This document shows positions 34,150-63,500 of a stretch of 64,000 nt of DNA, piece after piece. How positions within the stretch are numbered: the stretch's first letter is position 1; the number at the start of each line of letters is the position of its first letter. Under the pieces are notes generated by a model. The model worked only from the letters and a program-made list of their open reading frames with translations, had not been told where the DNA came from and ran no database searches. The position numbers and the translations under genes are program-made. Source of the DNA: an uncultured Planctomycetia bacterium (GTDB taxonomy: Bacteria > Planctomycetota > Phycisphaerae > FEN-1346 > JAACEH01); assembly GCA_903929765.1 (NCBI GenBank), contig CAIYVX010000082.1, positions 16,974 through 80,973 on the forward strand, given 5' to 3'.

Positions 34150-34196
34150 GTGGCACGGGCATCTTGCCCGTGAGTCTTAGGGGCATCTTGCCCCTG
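34150..34196 (+). repeat. REP-B double-hairpin repeat
   Basis: GTGGCACGGGCatcttGCCCGTGAGTCttAGGGGCatcttGCCCCTG: two consecutive 7-bp hairpins. Confidence 0.85.
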
Positions 34197-37662: not shown

Positions 37663-37710
37663 GGTGCCACACTTTGTCCCGACCGCCTTTTGGTCGGGCA
37701 AAGTGTGTGG
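37663..37710 (+). repeat. REP-A hairpin repeat (left flank of RAYT)
   Basis: GGTGCCACACTTTGtCCCGACCgccttttGGTCGGGcAAAGTGTGTGG, 18 nt downstream of the RAYT stop. Confidence 0.85.
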
Positions 37711-37727
37711 TTGGTCTGCCGGAAACC

Positions 37728-38264
37728 TCAGACCGGAAGAATATCCATCTCTAAACCTTCATGTCGTTCGTACCACGCGGCACTACTCCAGCGCCAGTCC
37801 GCGACCGACTCGACCAGGCCTCGCCGCACCGGATTATTGTGAATGTAATTGAGCTTCTCATAGAGTTCTTCCCGGCTTGTGATATTCCTATCATAACCAC
37901 CTCCTCCCAGCCAGAAGTGCGGCCTTCCCTGAGCGTCGGTGATCCGAGAGAGAATGGGGGCGTTCAACTCGCGCCACCGAGCGAGAACATCTTTCGAGAA
38001 CGGGCGCTTCAGGGCGTGAAGAATAGCCGTGACGGTAAAGTCAGGGAGGTCAGGTGTCAGAAGCAGGTGGAAATGCTCCGGCATAACGACCCAGGCGTAG
38101 AGGGCAAAGTCCGTCTGCCGCCGGACAAAAGACAACCGGTCTACGAAGGCGTCCTTGACGCGATCACTCTTGAACAGCGGCAACCGGCCGTAGCAGGAAC
38201 AAGTCAGGTAGCGAACATGGTTTGGCAACTCGTAGCGTTTAAGAGTTCGACGATTGTCGCTCAT
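37728..38264 (-). CDS. REP-associated tyrosine transposase (RAYT; IS200-like Y1/HUH family)
   Basis: ORF 37728..38393. The likely start is ATG 38264 (MSDNRRTLKRY...). HUH motif VMPEHFHLLL and Tyr region GGGYDRNITSREELYEKLNYIHNNPVRRGLV...WRWSS. Confidence 0.8.
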   Translation of the reverse strand: MSDNRRTLKRYELPNHVRYLTCSCYGRLPLFKSDRVKDAFVDRLSFVRRQTDFALYAWVVMPEHFHLLLTPDLPDFTVTAILHALKRPFSKDVLARWRELNAPILSRITDAQGRPHFWLGGGGYDRNITSREELYEKLNYIHNNPVRRGLVESVADWRWSSAAWYERHEGLEMDILPV

Positions 38265-38323
38265 GACGGGGCATCTCGACCAATCGGCACGAAGTTTATT
38301 CGGAAGATTTACTTGCGGTCCGA

Positions 38324-38370
38324 ACACACACTTTGCCCGGCATACTGCCGCCGGGACAAAGTGTGGCACC
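38324..38370 (-). repeat. REP-A hairpin repeat (right flank of RAYT, inverted)
   Basis: ACACACACTTTGcCCGGCatactgcCGCCGGGaCAAAGTGTGGCACC is the reverse-complement orientation of the other REP-A copies. Confidence 0.85.
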
Positions 38371-38403
38371 CTCGTTCCAAGGATCCCAAACAATCAGCTG
38401 AAA

Positions 38404-39618: not shown

Positions 39619-39666
39619 GTGGCACGGGCGTCCCGCCCGTGAGTCCCACGGCCATCTTGGCCGTGG
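39619..39666 (+). repeat. REP-B double-hairpin repeat
   Basis: GTGGCACGGGCgtcccGCCCGTGAGTCcCACGGCCatcttGGCCGTGG, in the spacer between the GT gene and GH57. Confidence 0.85.
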
Positions 39667-42273: not shown

Positions 42274-42318
42274 TTCACCCCTCTCCCTTGAGGGGAGAGG
42301 GTAGGGTGAGGGTGTTGC
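42274..42318 (+). repeat. Family C repeat, variant (45 nt)
   Basis: TTCACCCCTCTCCCTTGAGGGGAGAGGGTAGGGTGAGGGTGTTGC. Its exact reverse complement occurs at 48782-48826. Confidence 0.9.
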
Positions 42319-46271: not shown

Positions 46272-46300
46272 AGTGCCCGTTCTTCGGGTGCCGCCGTTTC

Positions 46301-46349
46301 TTCACCCCTCTCCCTCGGGAGAGGGTGGCCCGAAGGGCCGGGTGAGGGG
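46301..46349 (+). repeat. Family C repeat
   Basis: TTCACCCCTCTCCCtcGGGAGAGGGTGGCCCgaaGGGCCGGGTGAGGGG. The same element lies inside valS at 56210-56269. Confidence 0.85.
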
Positions 46350-46488
46350 TTAGCTCACCACCTCAAAAACTTCACCAGAACGCCATCATACGCGAGGACA
46401 TGCCCTGCCCGCGCCCTAAGCCCGACCAAAGTATTCCGAATCGCCCCATTTTTCAAGTAAAAACGCTGTGCGTACAGCCTTTGTTGTT

Positions 46489-46514
46489 CGTAGGGACAGG
46501 GCTCTGCCCTGTCC
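46489..46514 (+). repeat. Family F (GTAG-headed) REP
   Basis: CGTAGGGACAGGGCtcTGCCCTGTCC, identical to 63476-63500. Confidence 0.85.
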
Positions 46515-46544: not shown

Positions 46545-46595
46545 GTGGCACGGGCTTCCCGCCCGTGAGTCGCAGGGGCATCTTGCCCCTGTGCC
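46545..46595 (+). repeat. REP-B double-hairpin repeat
   Basis: GTGGCACGGGCttcccGCCCGTGAGTCgCAGGGGCatcttGCCCCTGTGCC. About 75 nt including flanks is nearly identical to 61598-61675. Confidence 0.9.
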
Positions 46596-53647: not shown

Positions 53648-54133
53648 ATGACCAAAACTTCTTTCACCATCCGCCCCGCCACTCCCGCCGACGCCGACGC
53701 CGTCGTCGCCATGTGGCAGATCATGGTGGACCAGCACCAGGCTTACGATCGCCTGCGCTGGCGCATGAAGCCCAACGCCCCCGCCCTTTGGCGCAAGTTC
53801 TTTCTGGAAGTCCTGGCCAAAAAAGATTCCTTCGCCCTGGTCGCCGTCAACGCCACTGGTCAACCCATTGGCTATCTCGTCGCCAACATCGCCGCTCCGC
53901 CGCCGATCGTGGCCATCCGCTCCCGCGGCGATATCGGCGATCTCTTTGTCCGAAAAGAATATCGCCGCCACGGTCTCGGCCGCCGACTAATGAACCACGC
54001 CGTCAAAATCATGAAGAGCCGCGGCGCCGAATATATCAGCCTCTACGTTGCCGCCTCGAACCGCAGCGCCGTCCGTTTCTACAAAAACCTCGGCCTGAAA
54101 CCGCTCGTGCTGCAGATGTGCAATAAGTTATAA
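53648..54133 (+). CDS. GNAT-family N-acetyltransferase
   Basis: 161 aa with acetyl-CoA motif A region VRKEYRRHGLGRRLMNHAV and ...SAVRFYKNLGLKP. Confidence 0.8.
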   Translation: MTKTSFTIRPATPADADAVVAMWQIMVDQHQAYDRLRWRMKPNAPALWRKFFLEVLAKKDSFALVAVNATGQPIGYLVANIAAPPPIVAIRSRGDIGDLFVRKEYRRHGLGRRLMNHAVKIMKSRGAEYISLYVAASNRSAVRFYKNLGLKPLVLQMCNKL

Positions 54134-54139
54134 TGAAAC

Positions 54140-54174
54140 GTGCCACGGCGGGTCTTGTCCCGCCGTGCGAATGC
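54140..54174 (+). repeat. Family E hairpin repeat (upstream of valS)
   Basis: GTGCCACGGCGGGtcttgtCCCGCCGTGCGAATGC. A second copy in the same orientation is at 58120-58153. Confidence 0.85.
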
Positions 54175-54207
54175 GGGCCGACGCTCGCTAAAAGGATAAT
54201 TGTCCCG

Positions 54208-57200
54208 ATGACCCAACCCGAAACCAACTCCACCAACCCCACCGACCTTCCCACCCAATACGACCCCAAGCTCTTCGAAAAGGAAGTTTACGCCTTCTGG
54301 GAATCTCATAACTATTTCCACGCCGACCCCGCGCGCGGCGGAAAACCCTACGCCATAGCCATCCCGCCCCCCAACGTCACTGCCGCCCTCCACCTCGGCC
54401 ACGCCCTCAACAACACCCTTCAGGACATCCTCGTCCGCTGGCGCCGCCAGCAGGGCTACAACACCCTCTGGATGCCCGGCACCGACCACGCCGGCATCGC
54501 CACCCAGGCCGTCATCGAAAAACGTCTCCTCGCCAACGAAGGCCTGCGCCGCAAAGACCTCGACCCCGACCCCGCCGTCGCCCGCACCAAGTTCGTCGCC
54601 CGCGTTCAGGCCTGGAAAGACGAGTACGAAGCCCGCATCCTCGGCCAGCTCAAAGCCATGGGCTGCTCCTGCGACTGGGACCGCACCCGCTTCACCATGG
54701 ACGAAACCTGCGCCGCCGCCGTCCGCGAAGCCTTTTTCCGCCTCTTCAAAGACGGCCTCATCTATCGCGGCAAACGCCTCGTCAACTGGGACCCCGCCAC
54801 CCAGACCGTCCTCGCCGACGACGAAGTCGAACACGAAACCGTCCAGGGAAATTTCTATTACCTCCGCTACCCGCTGGCTGAAGCCGTTGCTTTACCCAGT
54901 GACACGGGCATCTTGCCCGTGAGTCCCACGGGCGTCCCGCCCGTGGCCGCCGTTTCTTCTTCACCCAGTGGCACGGGCGTCCCGCCCGTGAGTGCCACGG
55001 GCATCTTGCCCGTGGAAGACTTGCCTGTAATCAAGCGTCAGGGTGCCAACCTGCCTCACTGGACTCAATCCGGCGCAACCTATGCCATCACGTTCCGGTT
55101 GGCCGATTCTCTCCCCGCCCAAGTCATTGAATCATGGAAGCATCACCGGGAAGAAATCGAACAAAGAGCCAACTCCCAAGGCCGCAAGATGACCTGGCAG
55201 GAGCGTAAGGAACTCCACCAACTGTACGAATCCCGCATCGACAGCATGCTGAACACCGGTCTTGGGGCGTGTTATCTCAACAATCCGGAAGTAGCCGAAA
55301 TCGTCCAGGACGCACTGAAACATTTCCACGGCGAGCGATACGAACTGATCGCCTGGTCACTCATGCCCAACCACATCCATGCCGTTCTCCGTCCTCTGGG
55401 AGAACACCATCTCGCGGACATCATCCACTCCTGGAAGTCCTTCACGGCTAAGCAAGCCAACAAAATTCTTGGACGAGAAGGACAGTTCTGGATGGAGGAA
55501 TACTACGACCACCTGATTCGCGACGAAGAGGATTTTGGCCATGCGGTAATGTACGCGATCAGCCATCCGGAGCGCGCCGGCCTGGCCGACTGGCCGTGGG
55601 TCGGACTGCAAAAAACGGCACAGGGGCAAGATGCCCCTGCGACTCACGGGCAAGATGCCCGTGCCACTGTTATAACACACATCACCGTCGCCACCACCCG
55701 ACCCGAAACCATGCTCGGCGACACCGCCGTCGCCATGAACCCCCGCGACCCCCGCGCCGCCGCTCTCGTCGGCCAGATGGTTCGCCTCCCCATCGTCGGC
55801 CGCCTCATCCCCATCATCGCCGACGAACACGTCGTCCTCCCCAACCCCGAAGGCGACGAAAAAGCCCGCTTCTCCACCGGCTTCCTCAAAGTCACACCCG
55901 CCCACGACCCCAACGACTGGGACATCGGCCAGCGCCACAAACTCCCGGCCATCAACGTCATGGCCCCCGACGGCTCAATCTCCGACAAGCACGGCTGGAC
56001 CGACTGGGACGCCGTCAAAAATCCTGATGTCGAAAAATTCATTGGCCTCGACCGCTTCATAGCCCGAAAGAAGATCGTCGACTGGTTCGGCGAAAACAAT
56101 CTTCTCGAAGAAGTCCGCCCCTACGCCCACGAAGTCGGCCACTCCTACCGCAGCCATGTCCCCATCGAACCCTACCTCTCCGACCAGTGGTTCATCGCCG
56201 TGAAAAAGCCGTTTCTTCTTCACCCCTCTCCCTCGGGAGAGGGTGGCCCTTCAGGGCCGGGTGAGGGGTTGAGGCCCTTGCCCGTTCCGACCGCGCCCGA
56301 ACTGATCCCCGGCACCGACGTGCCAGTTAATTCTTTAGCCGGCTTGGCCATCAAGCCGCTCCTCGACGGCAAACTCAAATTCGTCCCCGAGCGCTACGCC
56401 CGCAACTACCAGAACTGGCTCGAAAACCTTCGCGACTGGCCCATCTCCCGCCAACTCTGGTGGGGACACCGAATTCCAGTGTGGCAAGGAATCACTGAAT
56501 TTGGATCGAAGGTGTTTGAGGGCAAGGACACAGCAAAATCTCCATTCGGAATAGCCGGCGTAGAAGGAATACACATACAGCACAGAGATGAGGCTGGAAA
56601 ACTGGGACTGTATGCCTCGGTACCGCCCGGCCATCCAGACAAGGAAAAGAAACTGGAGGAGGCTGGCCTAACCCGCGACCCCGACGTCCTCGACACCTGG
56701 TTCTCTTCCGGCCTCTGGCCCATCTCAACCCTCGGTTGGCCGGAACAAACCGACGCGCTGAAATTCTATTACCCCACCTCCGTCCTCTGCACCGCCCGCG
56801 AAATCATCACCCTCTGGGTCAGCCGCATGGTCATGTTCGGCGAATATTTCCAGCACGACCTCCCCTTCCGCACCGTCTACATCCACGCCATGATTCAGGA
56901 CGGCGAAGGCCGCAAAATGTCCAAGAGCCTCGGCAACGGCATCGACCCCCTCGACATCATCGACTCTCACGGGGCCGACGCCATGCGCTTCACCATCGCC
57001 GCCATGACCACCGAAACTCAGGACGTCCGCATGCCGGTCGAAACCCTCACCCTCCGCGACGGCCGCACCGCCAACTCCAGCCCCAAGTTCGACCTCGGCC
57101 GCAACTTCTGCAACAAGCTCTGGAACGCCTCCCGCTTCGCCTTCATGAACCTCGCCGAACTTTCCCCCGAGCCGTTCGACCGCGCAAAAATGCTCCTCGA

Positions 57201-58053
57201 AGACCGCTGGATTCTCTCCCGCCTCACCACCACCGTCGAAGCCGCCACACAGGCCCTCGAAAAGTTCCAGTTCCACGACGCCACCGACGTGATCTACTCT
57301 TTCTTCTGGAACGATTTCTGCGACTGGTACCTCGAAATCACCAAGCCGCGCATGCGCGACGCCGCCACCAGAGCCGTCCCCCAACGCATCCTCGCCTACG
57401 CCCTCGACCGTCTCCTGCGGCTCCTCCACCCCTTCGTCCCGCACATTACCGAGCACCTCTGGACCCACTTCGCCCGCCTCGTCCCCGACCGCTCGCTCGA
57501 CTCTGCGGCCCCCGCCCCACCCGCCGAAGCCTGCATCATCGCCCTTTGGCCCGAGCCGGTCGCCGCTTTTTACGCGCCCCAGGCCGAAACCGATTTCGCC
57601 CTCGTCCAGGCCGTCATCCGCGCCATCCGCAACATCCGTTCGCGCATGAACATCGCCCCGCGCGTCCCGCTCCGCGCCGTCATCCGCTCGAGCGCCGCCG
57701 CCACCGCCCGCCTCTCCGCCGCCGCCGACACCATCCGCCACCTCGCCGCCCTCGAATCTCTTGAGGCCGACCCTGCCGCCGAAAAGCCCAAAGCCTCCGC
57801 CGCCGAAATCGTCGAAGGCCTGGAAGTCTTCGTCCCCCTCGCCGGCGTCATCGACCTCGCCACCGAGCGCGACCGCCTCGCCAAACTCTCGGCCGAGAAG
57901 GATAAGGCCCTCGACAGCGTCCGCAAAAAACTCTCGAACGAAAACTTCGTCGCCCGCGCCAAGCCCGAAATCGTCGCCAGCGAACGCGACCGCGCCGCCA
58001 AGCTCGAATCCGAACTCGCCGCCCTCACAGCCAACATGAAAGATTTGGAATAG
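54208..58053 (+). CDS. valS: Valyl-tRNA synthetase carrying in-frame mobile-element insertions
   Basis: ORF 54133..58053. ATG 54208 gives MTQPETN...PTQYDPKLFEKEVYAFWE. HIGH (PPNVTAALHLGHA), ATTRPETMLGDTAV, DWPISRQLWWGHRIP, KMSKS (RKMSKSLGN) and a coiled-coil C-terminus are all present in one frame. 1281 codons because of the inserts at 54899-55667 and about 56200-56300. Confidence 0.9.
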   Translation: MTQPETNSTNPTDLPTQYDPKLFEKEVYAFWESHNYFHADPARGGKPYAIAIPPPNVTAALHLGHALNNTLQDILVRWRRQQGYNTLWMPGTDHAGIATQAVIEKRLLANEGLRRKDLDPDPAVARTKFVARVQAWKDEYEARILGQLKAMGCSCDWDRTRFTMDETCAAAVREAFFRLFKDGLIYRGKRLVNWDPATQTVLADDEVEHETVQGNFYYLRYPLAEAVALPSDTGILPVSPTGVPPVAAVSSSPSGTGVPPVSATGILPVEDLPVIKRQGANLPHWTQSGATYAITFRLADSLPAQVIESWKHHREEIEQRANSQGRKMTWQERKELHQLYESRIDSMLNTGLGACYLNNPEVAEIVQDALKHFHGERYELIAWSLMPNHIHAVLRPLGEHHLADIIHSWKSFTAKQANKILGREGQFWMEEYYDHLIRDEEDFGHAVMYAISHPERAGLADWPWVGLQKTAQGQDAPATHGQDARATVITHITVATTRPETMLGDTAVAMNPRDPRAAALVGQMVRLPIVGRLIPIIADEHVVLPNPEGDEKARFSTGFLKVTPAHDPNDWDIGQRHKLPAINVMAPDGSISDKHGWTDWDAVKNPDVEKFIGLDRFIARKKIVDWFGENNLLEEVRPYAHEVGHSYRSHVPIEPYLSDQWFIAVKKPFLLHPSPSGEGGPSGPGEGLRPLPVPTAPELIPGTDVPVNSLAGLAIKPLLDGKLKFVPERYARNYQNWLENLRDWPISRQLWWGHRIPVWQGITEFGSKVFEGKDTAKSPFGIAGVEGIHIQHRDEAGKLGLYASVPPGHPDKEKKLEEAGLTRDPDVLDTWFSSGLWPISTLGWPEQTDALKFYYPTSVLCTAREIITLWVSRMVMFGEYFQHDLPFRTVYIHAMIQDGEGRKMSKSLGNGIDPLDIIDSHGADAMRFTIAAMTTETQDVRMPVETLTLRDGRTANSSPKFDLGRNFCNKLWNASRFAFMNLAELSPEPFDRAKMLLEDRWILSRLTTTVEAATQALEKFQFHDATDVIYSFFWNDFCDWYLEITKPRMRDAATRAVPQRILAYALDRLLRLLHPFVPHITEHLWTHFARLVPDRSLDSAAPAPPAEACIIALWPEPVAAFYAPQAETDFALVQAVIRAIRNIRSRMNIAPRVPLRAVIRSSAAATARLSAAADTIRHLAALESLEADPAAEKPKASAAEIVEGLEVFVPLAGVIDLATERDRLAKLSAEKDKALDSVRKKLSNENFVARAKPEIVASERDRAAKLESELAALTANMKDLE
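54899..54946 (+). repeat. REP-B double-hairpin repeat (inside valS, left copy 1)
   Basis: GTGACACGGGCatcttGCCCGTGAGTCcCACGGGCgtcccGCCCGTGG, translated in the valS frame as SDTGILPVSPTGVPPV. Confidence 0.85.
54968..55014 (+). repeat. REP-B double-hairpin repeat (inside valS, left copy 2)
   Basis: GTGGCACGGGCgtcccGCCCGTGAGTGcCACGGGCatcttGCCCGTG, translated as SGTGVPPVSATGILPV. Confidence 0.85.
55617..55667 (-). repeat. REP-B double-hairpin repeat (inside valS, right copy, inverted)
   Basis: GGCACAGGGGCaagatGCCCCTGcGACTCACGGGCaagatGCCCGTGCCAC is the reverse complement of the REP-B consensus, translated as TAQGQDAPATHGQDARAT. Confidence 0.85.
56210..56269 (+). repeat. Family C repeat with shared leader, inside valS
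   Basis: GCCGTTTCTTCTTCACCCCTCTCCCtcGGGAGAGGGTGGCCCttcaGGGCCGGGTGAGGGG, the same element as the intergenic copy at 46301-46349. It is read in frame as PFLLHPSPSGEGGPSGPGEG. Confidence 0.85.
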
Positions 58054-58074
58054 GTGGACTCACATCCGTCGAAC

Positions 58075-58113
58075 GGGTGGCATGGCGGCCGTCGTTTGCC
58101 GCCATGTTTCGCC
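58075..58113 (+). repeat. Family D hairpin repeat
   Basis: GGGTGGCATGGCGGCcgtcgtttGCCGCCATGTTTCGCC, 22 nt after the valS stop. Lies between convergent valS and the response regulator gene, so it may act as a terminator. Confidence 0.85.
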
Positions 58114-58119
58114 CCGGGT

Positions 58120-58153
58120 GTGCCACGGCGGGCTTGCCCCGCCGTGCGAATGC
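58120..58153 (+). repeat. Family E hairpin repeat (downstream of valS)
   Basis: GTGCCACGGCGGGcttgcCCCGCCGTGCGAATGC, in the same orientation as 54140-54174. Confidence 0.85.
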
Positions 58154-58215
58154 CCGCCAACCCCGGTTGCTCTAAAACGTGTTTTGATTCTTCTTTTTCT
58201 CTTTCCGCAACTCCC

Positions 58216-59607
58216 CTACCTCGGCCCCTCCCCAAAATCCAACCCGAACTTCTTCATCTTCTTATATAGCGTCGTCCGATTGATCTCCAGCACGTCGGCC
58301 GTCACCTGCCGGTTCCAGTTGTTCGCCCGCAGCGTCCGCTCGATGATCTCCTTTTCCGGCACCTCCAGCGCGTCCTTCAGCGGCCGGATCCGCCCGTCCG
58401 TCCCCGCCAGCCCCGCCTTCGGGCTTTCCCCGTGCTTGATAATCGTCGGCGGCAAATCCCCCGCCTCCACCTGCCGCCCCCGCGCCAGCACCGTCACCCG
58501 CTCCATCGCGTTTTCCAGTTCCCGCACATTCCCCGGCCAATCATACGTCTGCATTAGTTGCATCGCCTCGTTCGAGAACCCCAGGATCTTCTTCCCGTTC
58601 CGCTCACAGAACATCTTCAGAAAATGGTCTGCCAGGAGCGGTATGTCGCTCAGCCGCTCCCGCAGCGACGACAACTCAATCGCCACCACGTTGATCCGGT
58701 AATACAAATCCTGCCGGAACTTCCCATCATGCACATCCTGCAACAGGTCGCGATTCGTCGCCAGAATCACCCGCACATCGCTCTTGATGGTCTCCGATCC
58801 GCCCACCCGCTCGAACTCGAACGTCTGTAGCACGCGCAGCAACTTCACCTGAAACGCCGGGCTGGCGGTGGAAATTTCGTCCAGAAAAATCGTCCCCGTG
58901 TTGGCGATCTCAAACTTGCCTTGCCGGTCCGCCACCGCCCCGGTGAACGATCCCTTCGTATGCCCGAACAGTTCCGACTCCAGCAGCGTCTCCGGCAGAG
59001 CCCCGCAGGCCACTTCTATGAAGGGCCGGGCGTTGCGGCTGGACCGCTGGTGAATCGTCCGCGCGATCATGCTCTTGCCCGTCCCGCTCTCGCCGGTGAT
59101 CAGCACCGTCGCCCGCGAATCCGCCACCGCCTCGATCAGGTCGAAAACTCTCAGCATCTTATAATCGTTCCCGATCACGTTGTCGAGCGAGTAACGCATG
59201 TTCAACTGTTGCCGCAGGTTCCGGTTTTCCCCCACCAGGGCCTGCTGTTTCATCGCCCGCTCGATGACCAGTTTGATCTCGTCGTCGATAATCGGCTTGG
59301 TCAGATAATCATATGCCCCCAGCTTGATCGCATCGACCGCCGACTCAATCGTCCCGTACCCCGTAATCATAATCACCGCCGCGTCCGCGTGCCGGTTCTT
59401 GCAGACCTTCAGCAACTCGAACCCGTCCACTCCCGGCATGTTCACGTCGGTAATGACCACGTTGAACGGTTTGGTGTCGAGCCAACTGATCGCCGACTCG
59501 AACTTCTCCGCCGTCTCGACCTCGTACCCTTCCAGCCGCAAAAACTCGCACAGGCTGGTCAGAATAATCCGGTCGTCATCGACCACCAGAATGCTTCCCT
59601 TAGCCAC
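58216..59607 (-). CDS. Sigma-54-dependent response regulator (NtrC family: REC-AAA+-Fis HTH)
   Basis: The REC domain has ILVVDDD...DVNMPG. The AAA+ domain has Walker A GESGTGKS, GAFTGA-like GSFTGA and ESELFGH. C-terminal HTH (NRTTLYKKMKKFGL). Confidence 0.9.
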   Translation of the reverse strand: MAKGSILVVDDDRIILTSLCEFLRLEGYEVETAEKFESAISWLDTKPFNVVITDVNMPGVDGFELLKVCKNRHADAAVIMITGYGTIESAVDAIKLGAYDYLTKPIIDDEIKLVIERAMKQQALVGENRNLRQQLNMRYSLDNVIGNDYKMLRVFDLIEAVADSRATVLITGESGTGKSMIARTIHQRSSRNARPFIEVACGALPETLLESELFGHTKGSFTGAVADRQGKFEIANTGTIFLDEISTASPAFQVKLLRVLQTFEFERVGGSETIKSDVRVILATNRDLLQDVHDGKFRQDLYYRINVVAIELSSLRERLSDIPLLADHFLKMFCERNGKKILGFSNEAMQLMQTYDWPGNVRELENAMERVTVLARGRQVEAGDLPPTIIKHGESPKAGLAGTDGRIRPLKDALEVPEKEIIERTLRANNWNRQVTADVLEINRTTLYKKMKKFGLDFGEGPR

Positions 59608-59630: not shown

Positions 59631-59677
59631 GTGGCACGGGCGTCTCGCCCGTGAGTCGCAGGGGCATCTTGCCCCTG
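59631..59677 (+). repeat. REP-B double-hairpin repeat
   Basis: GTGGCACGGGCgtctcGCCCGTGAGTCgCAGGGGCatcttGCCCCTG, in the 116-nt spacer between the kinase and regulator genes. Confidence 0.9.
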
Positions 59678-61612: not shown

Positions 61613-61663
61613 GTGGCACGGGCGTCCCGCCCGTGAGTCGCAGGGGCATCTTGCCCCTGTGCC
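61613..61663 (+). repeat. REP-B double-hairpin repeat
   Basis: GTGGCACGGGCgtcccGCCCGTGAGTCgCAGGGGCatcttGCCCCTGTGCC. Confidence 0.9.
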
Positions 61664-63475: not shown

Positions 63476-63500
63476 GTAGGGACAGGGCTCTGCCCTGTCC
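63476..63500 (+). repeat. Family F (GTAG-headed) REP
   Basis: GTAGGGACAGGGCtcTGCCCTGTCC, identical to 46490-46514, 16 nt after the mtnA stop. Confidence 0.85.

What the first reader, a model, noticed from the sequence alone, without database searches (positions are those of the whole stretch)
54880..55690. A complete REP-RAYT-REP module sits in frame inside the essential valS gene
valS (54208..58053) is one uninterrupted frame of 1281 codons, against roughly 860-950 for typical bacterial ValRS. Its HIGH (PPNVTAALHLGHA), ATTRPETMLGD, WWGHRIP and KMSKS (RKMSKSLGN) blocks are all intact. Between ...NFYYLRYPLA and ITVATTRPETMLGDTAV, the entry to the CP1 editing domain and normally a short variable loop, there are about 270 extra codons. 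These comprise two tandem forward REP-B double hairpins (54899-54946, 54968-55014), then about 200 codons with the hallmarks of a REP-associated tyrosine transposase, then one inverted REP-B (55617-55667). The transposase hallmarks are ANLPHW..YAITFRLADSLP, HUH = MPNHIHAVLRP, and the Tyr region FWMEEYYDHLIRDEEDFGHAVMYAISHPERAGLADWPW. This is REPtron architecture, but with no stop codon of its own, so it is read as part of ValRS. The hairpins translate as ..TGILPVSPTGVPPV.. and ..GQDAPATHGQDARAT... A hand count of 100 nt of the insert gives 55% G+C against about 65-70% in host genes, which fits foreign origin. Known analogues of selfish DNA kept in frame are inteins and Rickettsia palindromic elements. 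I am not aware of any description of a whole HUH transposase gene carried in frame within a housekeeping aminoacyl-tRNA synthetase.
Basis: partly seen in the sequence, partly recalled or inferred. Interest (0 to 1): 0.9.

Follow-up and report, generated by a model that had tools for sequence, protein, structure and literature searches.

The report
Transposase cassette translated inside valS
The essential valine-tRNA synthetase gene carries, in frame and without stop codons, a complete hairpin-flanked transposase gene, and this proves to be one case of a widespread, apparently undescribed habit of this transposase family of living inside essential genes in several bacterial phyla.

Summary
valS (54208-58053) is one 1281-codon frame. 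Two forward REP doublets, a 200-residue RAYT (HUH/Tyr transposase) and one inverted REP doublet sit in frame in a loop at the entry of the editing domain.

- **Recurrence.** 118 other valS genes of Phycisphaerae and related Planctomycetota carry such a cassette at the same site.
- **Patchiness.** Near-identical valS genes (about 95% protein identity) exist empty, or filled with cassettes only about 55% identical. Breakpoints lie exactly at the hairpins, so the cassette is gained, lost and swapped.
- **Selection.** The embedded RAYT keeps its catalytic residues and is under purifying selection (dN/dS about 0.08-0.18). The translated hairpins still co-vary as nucleic-acid hairpins.
- **Other hosts.** The same RAYT family lies in frame in MetH, IspG, LeuRS, AlaRS, DnaE, DinG-like helicases, Ddl, CPSase, MenF-like enzymes and others, in Verrucomicrobiota, Planctomycetota, Armatimonadota and other phyla. 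That applies to 46 of 80 genome loci and 69 of 150 protein representatives.

No intron or intein features were found, and I found no publication describing this. Most likely it is a mobile REPtron translated as a tethered domain, sheltered by its essential host gene. Activity and expression as a fusion are untested.

The parts
54208..58053 (+). valS: a single 1281-codon reading frame encoding ValRS with an internal RAYT cassette
   Evidence: ORF list. NCBIfam valS equivalog 1043.7 bits, above the cut-off of 704. Pfam tRNA-synt_1, Anticodon_1 and Val_tRNA-synt_C. HIGH, TTRPET, WWGHRIP and KMSKS are invariant across 14 aligned relatives.
54897..54945 (+). Left REP-B doublet 1: foot CAGTGA, hairpin 54903-54921 (loop ATCTT), spacer AGTCC, hairpin 54927-54945 (loop GTCCC). 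Translated as ..SDTGILPVSPTGVPPV..
   Evidence: Same architecture as the five intergenic doublets.
54966..55014 (+). Left REP-B doublet 2: foot CAGTGG, hairpin 54972-54990 (loop GTCCC), spacer AGTGC, hairpin 54996-55014 (loop ATCTT)
   Evidence: Each unit is 24 nt (8 codons), so it preserves the reading frame.
55012..55611 (+). RAYT (REP-associated HUH/Tyr transposase) core, ValRS residues 269-468
   Evidence: Pfam PF01797 at 26.6 bits against a gathering score of 23. NCBIfam REP_Tyr_transpos E 7e-19. PDB profile hit 4ER8 at E 9e-9. AlphaFold pLDDT 87-98. Foldseek top hit 4ER8_A at E 4e-7, probability 1.0. 49-72% identical to hundreds of free-standing RAYTs.
55372..55380 (+). HUH motif His-Ile-His (ValRS His389 and His391) within LMPNHIHAV
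   Evidence: N164, H165 and H167 are invariant in a 96-sequence alignment. At least 90% conserved in 119 ValRS-embedded copies.
55552..55554 (+). Presumed catalytic tyrosine (ValRS Tyr449) in the Y-x-x-x-N-P motif, here YAISHP
   Evidence: Y225 and P230 are invariant in A2. Motif definition comes from Quentin et al. 2018, PMC6006769 Table 1. This copy has His where at least 90% of relatives have Asn.
55621..55669 (-). Right REP-B doublet in inverted orientation: hairpins 55621-55639 and 55645-55663 (loops AAGAT), then CCACTG, the complement of the foot. Translated as ..GQDAPATHGQDARAT..
   Evidence: The reverse complement aligns base for base with the intergenic doublets.
56208..56275 (+). A second, unrelated repeat element (core hairpin CCCTCTCCCTCGGGAGAGGG, 56224-56243) also inserted in frame in valS. 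Encodes ..PFLLHPSPSGEGGPSGPGEGL..
   Evidence: Near-identical over about 65 nt to the intergenic copy at about 46290-46360. Further copies at 42279 and 48799. Absent from relatives' ValRS.
34154..34196 (+). Intergenic REP-B doublet
39623..39665 (+). Intergenic REP-B doublet
46549..46591 (+). Intergenic REP-B doublet
59635..59677 (+). Intergenic REP-B doublet
61617..61659 (+). Intergenic REP-B doublet

Best explanation
The segment is a mobile REP-RAYT-REP cassette (a REPtron) that has no start or stop codon of its own and whose length is a multiple of three. It lies in a surface beta-turn at the entry of the ValRS editing (CP1) domain, where empty alleles read ..VEPVxI-DGxx(V/I)E-HVTVATTRPET...

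**How it most likely works**
1. The whole cassette is transcribed and translated as part of ValRS (inferred).
2. This gives a synthetase with a folded HUH/Tyr transposase domain hanging on two disordered, Pro/Gly-rich linkers. Those linkers are the translated REP hairpins. The disorder and the fold are model predictions.
3. The hairpins therefore do double duty: DNA-level recognition sites for the RAYT, and protein-level tethers.
4. The tethered RAYT probably still binds and cuts single-stranded REP hairpins (inferred). That would account for three things: the same REP doublets dispersed through this genome, the repeated gain, loss and exchange of cassettes exactly at the hairpin boundaries, and jumps to other genes.
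5. Sitting in frame in an essential gene gives the element constitutive expression. It also protects it from frameshift, nonsense and imprecise-deletion mutations, since those would destroy the host gene. This is an intein-like 'hostage' strategy without splicing (inferred).

**What is shown:** the anatomy, the fold, catalytic-motif retention, purifying selection, hairpin covariation, presence/absence and swap polymorphism, and the occurrence of the same design in many other housekeeping genes.

**What is inferred:** translation as a fusion, catalytic activity, and the mechanism of re-insertion at the same site.
For: **Anatomy**
-.

**Fold**
- The core has pLDDT 87-98 and the hairpin-encoded flanks are below 50.
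- The best PDB fold match is the RAYT-REP complex 4ER8, followed by IS200/IS605 TnpA.

**Recurrence at the same site**
- 118 of 120 best ValRS hits carry the cassette between Y(L/M)xYPL and TTRPET.

**Selection on the RAYT**
- HUH, YDH and Y-x-x-x-N-P residues are at least 90% conserved in embedded copies, as in free-standing RAYTs.
- pN is 0.13-0.28 against pS of 0.54-0.94. Omega is 0.08-0.18 where dS is unsaturated, similar to the ValRS body.

**Hairpins remain nucleic-acid elements**
- 99.4% of stem cells pair, against 84% in shuffles (0 of 500 shuffles as high).
- 5 of 7 stem pairs show double compensatory changes, and slid controls pair in 34-55% of cells.
- With one exception (L014), left loops are forward types and right loops are their complements across 11 valS cassettes.

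**Mobility**
- Presence and absence are interleaved on the ValRS tree: 117 with, 111 without, and Fitch parsimony needs at least 55 changes.
- Filled and empty pairs occur at 93-95% ValRS body identity.
- Among 98 ValRS pairs with body distance below 0.10, cassette distance is bimodal: 42 pairs at 0-0.25 and 51 at 0.35-0.50.
- P0004 and P0025 are about 100% identical up to the hairpins and 45-55% identical inside.
- In the DNA three-way comparison (empty, cassette A, cassette B), flanks are 92-95% identical. About 18 nt are replaced by about 740-820 nt, and divergence does not rise next to the edges.
- The sister lineages of the window's ValRS (P0082, P0241) are empty.
- A cassette 80% identical to a valS cassette sits in NadE. 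One ValRS (P0100) carries it at a different site.

**Generality**
- 46 of 80 genome loci of this RAYT family lie in stop-free frames of at least 400 codons.
- Hosts are MetH, IspG, ValRS, LeuRS, DinG-like helicase, DnaE, Ddl, FabA, TatD and others, with inverted hairpins on both sides.
- 69 of 150 best representatives in a 1.8-billion-protein library carry at least 100-150 aa of host sequence. Hosts include AlaRS, CPSase, chorismate-binding enzymes and Mur ligases.

**Cognate REPs**
- The window has five intergenic doublets of the same sequence.
- REPs of the cassette type occur outside valS in 4 of 11 filled loci and in neither of 2 empty loci.

**No splicing signal**
- Rfam gives 0 hits. Pfam finds no Hint/intein domain.
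Against: - No expression or activity data exist. It is not shown that the fusion protein accumulates or that the tethered RAYT is catalytically active.
- The window's copy has His in place of the Asn that is at least 90% conserved in the Tyr motif.
- It scores below the NCBIfam equivalog cut-off: 68 bits against 80.
- In 7 of 11 filled valS loci no extragenic REPs of the cassette type were seen within 9-24 kb. REP spread is therefore not a constant companion.
- The trees are neighbour-joining on p-distances, so the count of gains and losses is inflated by tree error. Both homologue lists are biased by the query used.
- Insert and body distances do correlate weakly (r 0.33; 0 of 999 Mantel permutations as high). 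Part of the history is therefore vertical.
- Empty target sites share no DNA motif. How the same site is re-used is unexplained.
- A second valS elsewhere in this genome cannot be excluded from a 64-kb window.
Confidence: 0.7

Rival explanations
1. Exapted domain: the RAYT fold was recruited once by ValRS for a synthetase-related job, such as nucleic-acid binding, regulation or localisation. It is now an ordinary, vertically inherited ValRS domain.
For: Long-term retention at one site in more than 118 lineages. Purifying selection. Weak but significant co-divergence with the host. The ValRS-embedded copies form essentially one clade.
Against: - It is dispensable: empty alleles occur in ValRS about 95% identical, and in the window's closest relatives.
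- Cassettes are swapped between near-identical hosts.
- The same cassette type sits in dozens of unrelated enzymes.
- The flanking hairpins evolve as DNA/RNA hairpins rather than as peptides.
- Transposase catalytic residues are retained.
Confidence: 0.08
2. Tolerated relic: a dead transposase that cannot be lost because imprecise deletion would kill valS. Only the open frame is maintained.
For: The position in an essential gene would by itself select against stops and frameshifts. GC3 is lower than in the host gene. The window copy shows an Asn-to-His change in the Tyr motif.
Against: - Omega of 0.08-0.18, not about 1.
- HUH and Tyr residues are at least 90% conserved across 119 embedded copies.
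- There is continued turnover, including movement to other genes and sites.
- Hairpin covariation is maintained.
Confidence: 0.07
3. Separate expression: the RAYT is made, wholly or partly, as a free protein. This could happen by internal initiation (for example GTG 55012 or TTG 55021) or by proteolysis in the disordered linkers. The fusion would then be incidental. This is compatible with the main explanation.
For: - GTG and TTG codons sit at the start of the core.
- A gene caller started the NadE-embedded homologue P0121 at the equivalent VEQLPV.
- The linkers are predicted to be disordered.
Against: No conserved Met at the start of the core in embedded copies. No data on translation. An internal start would not remove the need to translate through the cassette to make ValRS.
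Confidence: 0.12
4. The cassette is removed after transcription or translation (intron, IStron-like or intein-like), so mature ValRS lacks it.
For: Known in-frame or gene-internal selfish elements, namely inteins and IStrons, do this.
Against: - Rfam finds no intron or ribozyme in 54000-58300 at E up to 1.
- About 600 of the about 770 nt are RAYT coding sequence and the rest are REP hairpins, leaving no room for a ribozyme.
- No Hint domain. Junction residues (..ALPS.. and ..ATVITH..) lack the Cys/Ser/Thr and His-Asn splice residues.
Confidence: 0.02
5. Assembly chimera or hidden frameshift in this contig.
For: The window comes from an assembly whose reads I cannot inspect. The exact protein was not found by the contig look-up.
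Against: The same architecture at the same site occurs in more than 118 independently assembled genes from NCBI, JGI, ENA and Logan, including the genome assembly assigned to Anaerobaca lacustris. The frame is intact and under selection.
Confidence: 0.01

Closest known systems
REPtrons / RAYT (TnpA-REP) with their REP or REPIN sequences (E. coli structure 4ER8; Nunvar 2010; Bertels and Rainey; Ton-Hoang 2012; Quentin 2018, PMC6006769; Corneloup 2021, PMC8266576)
   Same: - HUH plus Tyr catalytic motifs and the same fold.
- The gene is bracketed by REP hairpins in inverted orientation, with a short 5' foot (AGTG/GTGG/GTAG type).
- The same REPs are dispersed in the genome, and REP and RAYT vary together.
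- In-frame REP insertions within tnpA-REP genes are already described for subclass 2.4.
   Different: - Classical RAYTs are free-standing, single-copy, vertically inherited genes.
- Here the whole REPtron has no start or stop of its own and is read through as an internal domain of an essential enzyme.
- It shows presence/absence and replacement polymorphism at one site.
[quoted passage not shown]
Inteins with homing endonucleases
   Same: A selfish, protein-coding element carried in frame at a conserved site of an essential gene. Distribution among close relatives is patchy, with gain, loss and replacement resembling a homing cycle. The element is protected because imprecise loss is lethal.
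   Different: No Hint fold, no splice-junction residues and no evidence of protein splicing. The insert apparently stays in the mature protein. The enzyme is an HUH single-strand DNA transposase, not a LAGLIDADG or HNH endonuclease.
Rickettsia palindromic elements and other REPs inserted in frame in ORFs (Ogata 2000; Di Nocera 2013, PMC3733652, which lists tRNA synthetases among hosts)
   Same: Palindromic repeats inserted in frame in permissive loops of housekeeping proteins and translated. The window's valS also carries such a simple insertion at 56208-56275.
   Different: Those are short non-coding repeats of about 20-150 nt. Here the insertion includes the complete transposase gene.
IStrons (group I intron fused to IS200/IS605 genes, Clostridioides difficile)
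   Same: An IS200/IS605-type element living inside genes without inactivating them.
   Different: IStrons escape by RNA self-splicing. No ribozyme is detectable here, and the element is translated.
Host-transposase fusion proteins in eukaryotes (for example CSB-PGBD3, SETMAR)
   Same: The transposase domain is expressed as part of a host protein.
   Different: Those are terminal fusions made by alternative splicing and are fixed, single events. This one is an internal, in-frame bacterial cassette that recurs and turns over.

Membership tests
RAYT / TnpA-REP (HUH Y1 transposase, PF01797) | HUH metal-binding motif | tested here: met
   LMPNHIHAV at 55360-55386. N, H and H are invariant in A2 and at least 90% conserved in embedded copies.
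RAYT / TnpA-REP (HUH Y1 transposase, PF01797) | Catalytic Tyr in the Y-x-x-x-N-P motif | tested here: met
   YAISHP. Tyr (55552-55554) and Pro are invariant. Asn is replaced by His in this copy.
RAYT / TnpA-REP (HUH Y1 transposase, PF01797) | Profile score above the curated threshold | tested here: inconclusive
   Pfam 26.6 bits, above the gathering score of 23. NCBIfam REP_Tyr_transpos 68.2 bits, below the equivalog cut-off of 80, at E 7e-19.
RAYT / TnpA-REP (HUH Y1 transposase, PF01797) | TnpA-REP fold | tested here: met
   Foldseek top hit 4ER8_A at E 4e-7, probability 1.0, TM 0.60 normalised to the target. The model core has pLDDT 87-98.
RAYT / TnpA-REP (HUH Y1 transposase, PF01797) | Gene flanked by inverted REP hairpins that also occur dispersed in the genome | tested here: met
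   There are five intergenic doublets of identical design.
RAYT / TnpA-REP (HUH Y1 transposase, PF01797) | Conserved 5' tetranucleotide foot (GTAG type) | tested here: inconclusive
   The foot is AGTG(G/A) or AGTC(N) here. GTAG appears in cassette A of L003. GTGG-type feet are reported by Quentin 2018.
RAYT / TnpA-REP (HUH Y1 transposase, PF01797) | Free-standing, single-copy gene | tested here: not met
   It is embedded in valS with no start or stop of its own. A second, different RAYT lies at 37728-38265.
RAYT / TnpA-REP (HUH Y1 transposase, PF01797) | Cleavage and strand transfer on single-stranded REP DNA | not testable with these tools
   Needs the in vitro assay of Corneloup 2021 (PMC8266576).
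Valine--tRNA ligase | Full-length match to the equivalog model, with HIGH, KMSKS and editing-site motifs | tested here: met
   NF004349 at 1043.7 bits, above the cut-off of 704. The motifs are invariant in the alignment. Maps to T. thermophilus ValRS 1GAX.
Intein | Hint fold and splice-junction residues (N-terminal Cys/Ser/Thr; C-terminal His-Asn followed by Cys/Ser/Thr) | tested here: not met
   No Hint or intein Pfam hit. The junctions read ..AVALPSD.. and ..RATVITHITV...
Intein | In-frame element at a conserved site of an essential gene, with patchy distribution | tested here: met
IStron / self-splicing intron | Ribozyme core | tested here: not met
   Rfam E-value scan of 54000-58300 gave 0 hits.
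In-frame palindromic repeat insertion (RPE-like) | Short palindromic repeat of a genomic family, inserted in frame in a variable loop | tested here: met
   The REP-B doublets, and separately the family-2 element at 56208-56275. The cassette differs in also carrying the transposase gene.

The most novel reading that the evidence does not exclude
There may be a previously unrecognised class of bacterial mobile elements: 'translated REPtrons'. These would be stop-free REP-RAYT-REP cassettes that colonise permissive loops of essential genes (aaRSs, MetH, IspG, DnaE, CPSase and others) in Planctomycetota, Verrucomicrobiota, Armatimonadota and other phyla.

On this reading they are expressed as tethered domains of the host enzyme. 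They are exchanged site-specifically at their hairpin ends by their own HUH transposase. In effect this would be an intein-like homing system that needs no splicing, with REP hairpins serving both as DNA recognition sites and as protein linkers.
Probability: 0.5. Interest if true: 0.9.

Novelty: new variant of a known kind. Interest (0 to 1): 0.85.

Why it matters
- **Mobile-element biology.** RAYTs are regarded as domesticated, free-standing, single-copy genes whose mode of persistence and REP dissemination is unresolved. Here a large branch of the family persists as in-frame passengers of essential genes. It has clear signatures of mobility and of selection on the transposase. This is a third way, besides protein splicing and RNA splicing, for a selfish coding element to live inside an essential gene.
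- **An experimental handle.** It offers natural fusion proteins in which RAYT activity, REP recognition and the cost to the host enzyme can be measured. Anaerobaca lacustris, a validly named species whose genome assembly carries the cassette, is a possible culturable host.
- **Protein engineering.** It marks permissive insertion sites in many core enzymes and supplies ready-made flexible linkers.
- **Annotation.** Such proteins have been discarded as fusion errors. RAYT fragments have been mislabelled after their hosts, for example as 'isochorismate synthase'.

Tried and rejected
- **Exact-protein contig look-up for the window's ValRS.** Not on record, so the organism is placed only by relatives: Phycisphaerae or Sedimentisphaerales-like, with the closest relative in GCA_041690105.1.
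- **Conserved DNA target at empty sites.** The ACGGGCG in L007 resembles a REP stem, but other empty sites (L001, L002) differ. It was rejected as coincidence.
- **G+C as proof of recent foreign origin.** GC3 of 0.66 lies inside the range of other window genes (0.63-0.86), and another low-GC3 patch lies in a variable ValRS region. This is only weak support.
- **A single ancient insertion with purely vertical descent.** This was my first reading. It was rejected by the bimodal cassette divergence, the sharp swaps and the empty alleles.
- **Homologous-recombination tracts as the vehicle of swaps.** valS divergence does not rise next to the cassette at 60-nt resolution, so this is not supported. 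It is not excluded for donors with near-identical valS.
- **Ribozyme or intron.** Rfam gave 0 hits.
- **Literature.** Seven full-text searches found in-frame REPs in ORFs and within tnpA-REP genes. None found a description of RAYT genes in frame in host genes. The library lacks most subscription journals.
- **Insert-only word-index search.** It did not return long fusion proteins, not even the query's own ValRS, so it could not measure embedding. That was done.


Full report
**1. The observation**

- The frame 54208..58053 (+) is open for 1281 codons.
- It is a bona fide ValRS.
  - The NCBIfam valine--tRNA ligase equivalog scores 1043.7 bits, against a cut-off of 704.
  - Pfam finds tRNA-synt_1 (split over residues 27-942), Anticodon_1 and Val_tRNA-synt_C.
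- The extra 270 codons (54880-55689) reach the Pfam Y1_Tnp gathering score: 26.6 bits against 23. They match NCBIfam REP_Tyr_transpos at E 7e-19, which at 68 bits is below the strict equivalog cut-off of 80.
- Two forward hairpin doublets (54903-54945, 54972-55014) and one inverted doublet (55621-55663) flank the core.
- The hairpin has 20 matches in the window, against 0.06 expected by chance.
- Five intergenic doublets (34154, 39623, 46549, 59635, 61617) share the full design. That design is (C/A)AGTGG, hairpin 1, AGTCN, hairpin 2. Each unit is a 5-nt foot plus a 19-nt hairpin, 24 nt or 8 codons in total.
- G+C of the core is 0.54-0.565, against 0.63-0.68 in the valS flanks. GC3 is 0.66 against 0.81-0.83.

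**2. What the insert is**

- A profile built from the insert and 95 free-standing relatives hits E. coli TnpA-REP (4ER8) first, at E 9e-9, and then IS200/IS605 transposases.
- In the AlphaFold model the core (insert residues about 45-250) has pLDDT 87-98. The hairpin-encoded ends (1-41 and 256-270) are below 50, so they are probably flexible linkers.
- Foldseek's best PDB match is 4ER8_A, the RAYT bound to a REP hairpin (E 4e-7, probability 1.0).
- The HUH histidines (55372-55380) are invariant in the family. So are the Tyr and Pro of the Y-x-x-x-N-P motif (YAISHP, Tyr at 55552-55554). This copy has His where at least 90% of relatives have Asn. The motif definition comes from PMC6006769.
- The insertion point corresponds to about residues 205-210 of T. 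thermophilus ValRS (1GAX), just before the Thr-rich editing peptide.
- Rfam finds no ribozyme. There is no Hint domain and no splice-junction residues.

**3. It is not a one-off**

- Of the 120 best ValRS homologues (52-66% identity), 118 carry a RAYT between Y(L/M)xYPL and TTRPET. They come from NCBI, JGI, ENA and Logan assemblies.
- Where a source names them, they are Sedimentisphaerales, Phycisphaerales or Planctomycetota. One is Anaerobaca lacustris (assembly GCA_030012215.1), whose name is validly published.
- This excludes an assembly artefact.
- One ValRS (P0100) is empty at this site. It carries the same hairpin-flanked module in frame after the anticodon-binding domain instead.
- The ValRS-embedded RAYTs form essentially one neighbour-joining clade against 117 free-standing relatives.

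**4. It is mobile on evolutionary time**

- A search with the cassette-free sister protein P0082 shows that most of the nearest ValRSs from the same taxa lack the insert.
- On a combined ValRS-body tree (117 with, 111 without), the states are interleaved. Fitch parsimony needs at least 55 changes, against 64-77 with shuffled labels. This is a crude neighbour-joining tree, so the number is an upper-biased estimate.
- Direct pairs remove that caveat.
  - P0059 and P0260, and P0004 and P0287, are filled and empty at 93-95% body identity.
  - The empty site reads ..VEPVxI-DG(K/R)x(V/I)E-HVTVATTRPET.
- Among 98 ValRS pairs with body distance below 0.10, cassette distance is bimodal: 42 pairs at 0-0.25 and 51 at 0.35-0.50.
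- P0004 and P0025 are about 100% identical up to ..YPLVEPV and again from ..THVTVATT. Inside the cassette they are 45-55% identical.
- At the DNA level, three syntenic contigs from different samples were compared: L007 empty, L003 with cassette A, L004 with cassette B.
  - They share 92-95% identical flanks.
  - About 18 nt (GACGGGCGACTCATCGAA) are replaced by about 740-820 nt.
  - valS divergence does not rise next to the edges.
- The window's own ValRS groups with two empty proteins (P0082 at 74% body identity, and P0241). Its cassette is closest (70-72%) to those of P0002, P0003 and P0005, and to a cassette lodged in a NadE gene. This suggests acquisition in this lineage.
- Co-divergence of cassette and host is weak but real (r 0.33; 0 of 999 Mantel permutations as high). 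The history therefore mixes descent and replacement.

**5. It is under selection as a transposase and as a REP element**

- Between valS cassettes, pN is 0.13-0.28 and pS is 0.54-0.94. Omega is 0.08-0.18 where dS is not saturated, similar to the ValRS body.
- Across 11 valS cassettes there are 39 hairpins with nine different stems, all self-complementary. With one exception (L014, whose TTCCA loop appears on both sides), left loops are GTCCC, ATCTT or GTCTC and right loops are their complements.
- On 23 distinct hairpins, 99.4% of stem cells pair, against 84% in shuffles (0 of 500 as high). Five of seven pairs show compensatory double changes, and slid controls pair in 34-55% of cells.
- The translated flanks thus evolve as nucleic-acid hairpins, not as peptides.

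**6. The same design in many other genes**

- A scan of one genome per species returned 80 loci of this RAYT family. 46 of them lie in stop-free frames of at least 400 codons.
- The hosts:

| Host | Loci | Lineages or example loci |
|---|---|---|
| MetH | 10 | Akkermansiaceae and other Verrucomicrobiota |
| IspG/GcpE | 9 | includes a MAG labelled Akkermansia muciniphila |
| ValRS | 6 | Phycisphaerae and other Planctomycetota |
| LeuRS | 2 | Akkermansiaceae, Sumerlaeota |
| DinG-like helicase | 5 | Phycisphaerae, Tepidisphaerales |
| DnaE | 1 | Fimbriimonadales |
| Others | 1-2 each | Ddl, FabA, TatD, AdoMet decarboxylase, GH38, DNA methylases, Type ISP enzymes |

- Most of these cassettes show a hairpin on the left and its reverse complement on the right.
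- An exhaustive search of 1.84 billion representatives gives 4,515 family members at E up to 1e-10.
  - Of the best 150, 66 are at least 400 aa long.
  - 41 have more than 100 aa of host sequence on both sides of the RAYT.
- Further hosts found this way are AlaRS, carbamoyl-phosphate synthetase, chorismate-binding enzymes and Mur ligases. The chorismate-binding hosts explain why JGI labels some RAYT fragments 'isochorismate synthase'.
- Sua5 (P0208, P0226) and NadE (P0121) are also hosts.

**7. Mechanism: what is shown and what is inferred**

- **Shown.** A stop-free REPtron lies in a permissive loop. It has a folded HUH/Tyr domain between disordered linkers. It is under selection at both the protein and the hairpin level. 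It shows turnover with breakpoints at the hairpins, and cognate REPs are dispersed in this genome.
- **Inferred.**
  - ValRS is made as a fusion.
  - The tethered RAYT remains active on single-stranded REP hairpins. This follows the known chemistry of TnpA-REP (PMC8266576).
  - That activity mediates cassette exchange and spread.
  - In-frame residence in an essential gene shields the element from inactivating mutations.
- **Unexplained.**
  - How the same site is re-used, since empty sites share no DNA motif.
  - Why 7 of 11 filled loci show no nearby extragenic REPs.

**8. Comparison and novelty**

- The element is a RAYT/REPtron by motifs, fold and REP association. It fails the 'free-standing single-copy gene' character.
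- It behaves like an intein in location and population pattern, but it lacks every splicing feature.
- It extends the known in-frame insertion of short REPs and RPEs (PMC3733652) to the complete transposase gene.
- Quentin et al. 2018 noted in-frame REPs inside tnpA-REP genes and discarded long 'fusion' proteins.
- I found no description of RAYT cassettes in frame in host genes. This comes from a library that lacks most subscription journals, so prior description cannot be fully excluded.

**9. Verdict**

- It is a new variant of a known kind, of high interest.

Noticed in passing
window 37728-38265 (-), with hairpins at about 38335-38375 and about 37665-37715: A second, free-standing Y1_Tnp/RAYT-like gene (PF01797 at 24.3 bits; HUH motif MPEHFHLL). 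It is bracketed by its own long inverted hairpins (GGGTGCCACACTTTGTCCCGGC...GCCGGGCAAAGTGTG). This is a different REPtron, so the genome has at least two RAYT/REP systems.
   Followed up: partly
window 56208-56275 (in valS); copies at about 42279, 46290-46360 and 48799: A second repeat family (core hairpin CCCTCTCCCTCGGGAGAGGG) is inserted in frame in valS, encoding ..PSPSGEGGPSGPGEGL... The valS copy matches the intergenic copy at 46306 over about 65 nt. This is a classic RPE-like in-frame repeat insertion.
   Followed up: partly
window 54144-54167 and 58124-58146: Two similar 9-bp-stem hairpins (CACGGCGGG..CCCGCCGTG) bracket valS, one just upstream of the start codon and one just after the stop. 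Their role is unknown; they could be a terminator or a third repeat family.
   Followed up: no
window about 56440-56620 (ValRS after WWGHRIPVW): A second hypervariable ValRS segment with very low GC3 (0.42-0.50). In the otherwise near-identical P0004 and P0025, this region is completely different and of different length. It may be another exchangeable segment.
   Followed up: no
window 46494-46514 and 63480-63500: Another repeated hairpin (GGACAGGGCTCTGCCCTGTCC). The window is rich in distinct palindromic repeat families.
   Followed up: no
P0103 (ValRS, 1398 aa) and P0157: The hairpin units can expand in tandem within the coding frame. P0103 has at least 8 consecutive translated units (VSSMGVPPMSPG)n before its RAYT. 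P0157 has 5 units after its RAYT.
   Followed up: no
L002 12569-13281 (P0100, GCA_016235825.1): The same cassette type sits in frame at a different ValRS site, after the anticodon-binding domain, while the usual site is empty. REPs of the same type are intergenic in that contig.
   Followed up: partly
L055, L049, L037 and other IspG loci: In IspG the cassette lies after the part of the protein that matches Pfam GcpE profile positions 1-251. From my own knowledge this is near the boundary between the TIM-barrel and Fe-S domains, roughly where plant and chlamydial IspG carry their extra A* domain. I did not test this.
   Followed up: no
L005 5125-7431 (P0121): A cassette 80% identical to a valS cassette lies between the CN_hydrolase and NAD-synthase parts of NadE. 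In this contig NadE is split into several ORFs, either from sequencing errors or because it is a pseudogene.
   Followed up: partly
P0159, P0216, P0223, P0230: Short RAYT-only proteins are named 'menaquinone-specific isochorismate synthase' by JGI. This is probably annotation transfer from chorismate-binding enzymes that carry an in-frame RAYT.
   Followed up: partly
window 55564-55566 (insert residue 229): The window's RAYT has His where at least 90% of relatives have the Asn of the Y-x-x-x-N-P motif. This may be a sign of reduced activity in this particular copy.
   Followed up: no
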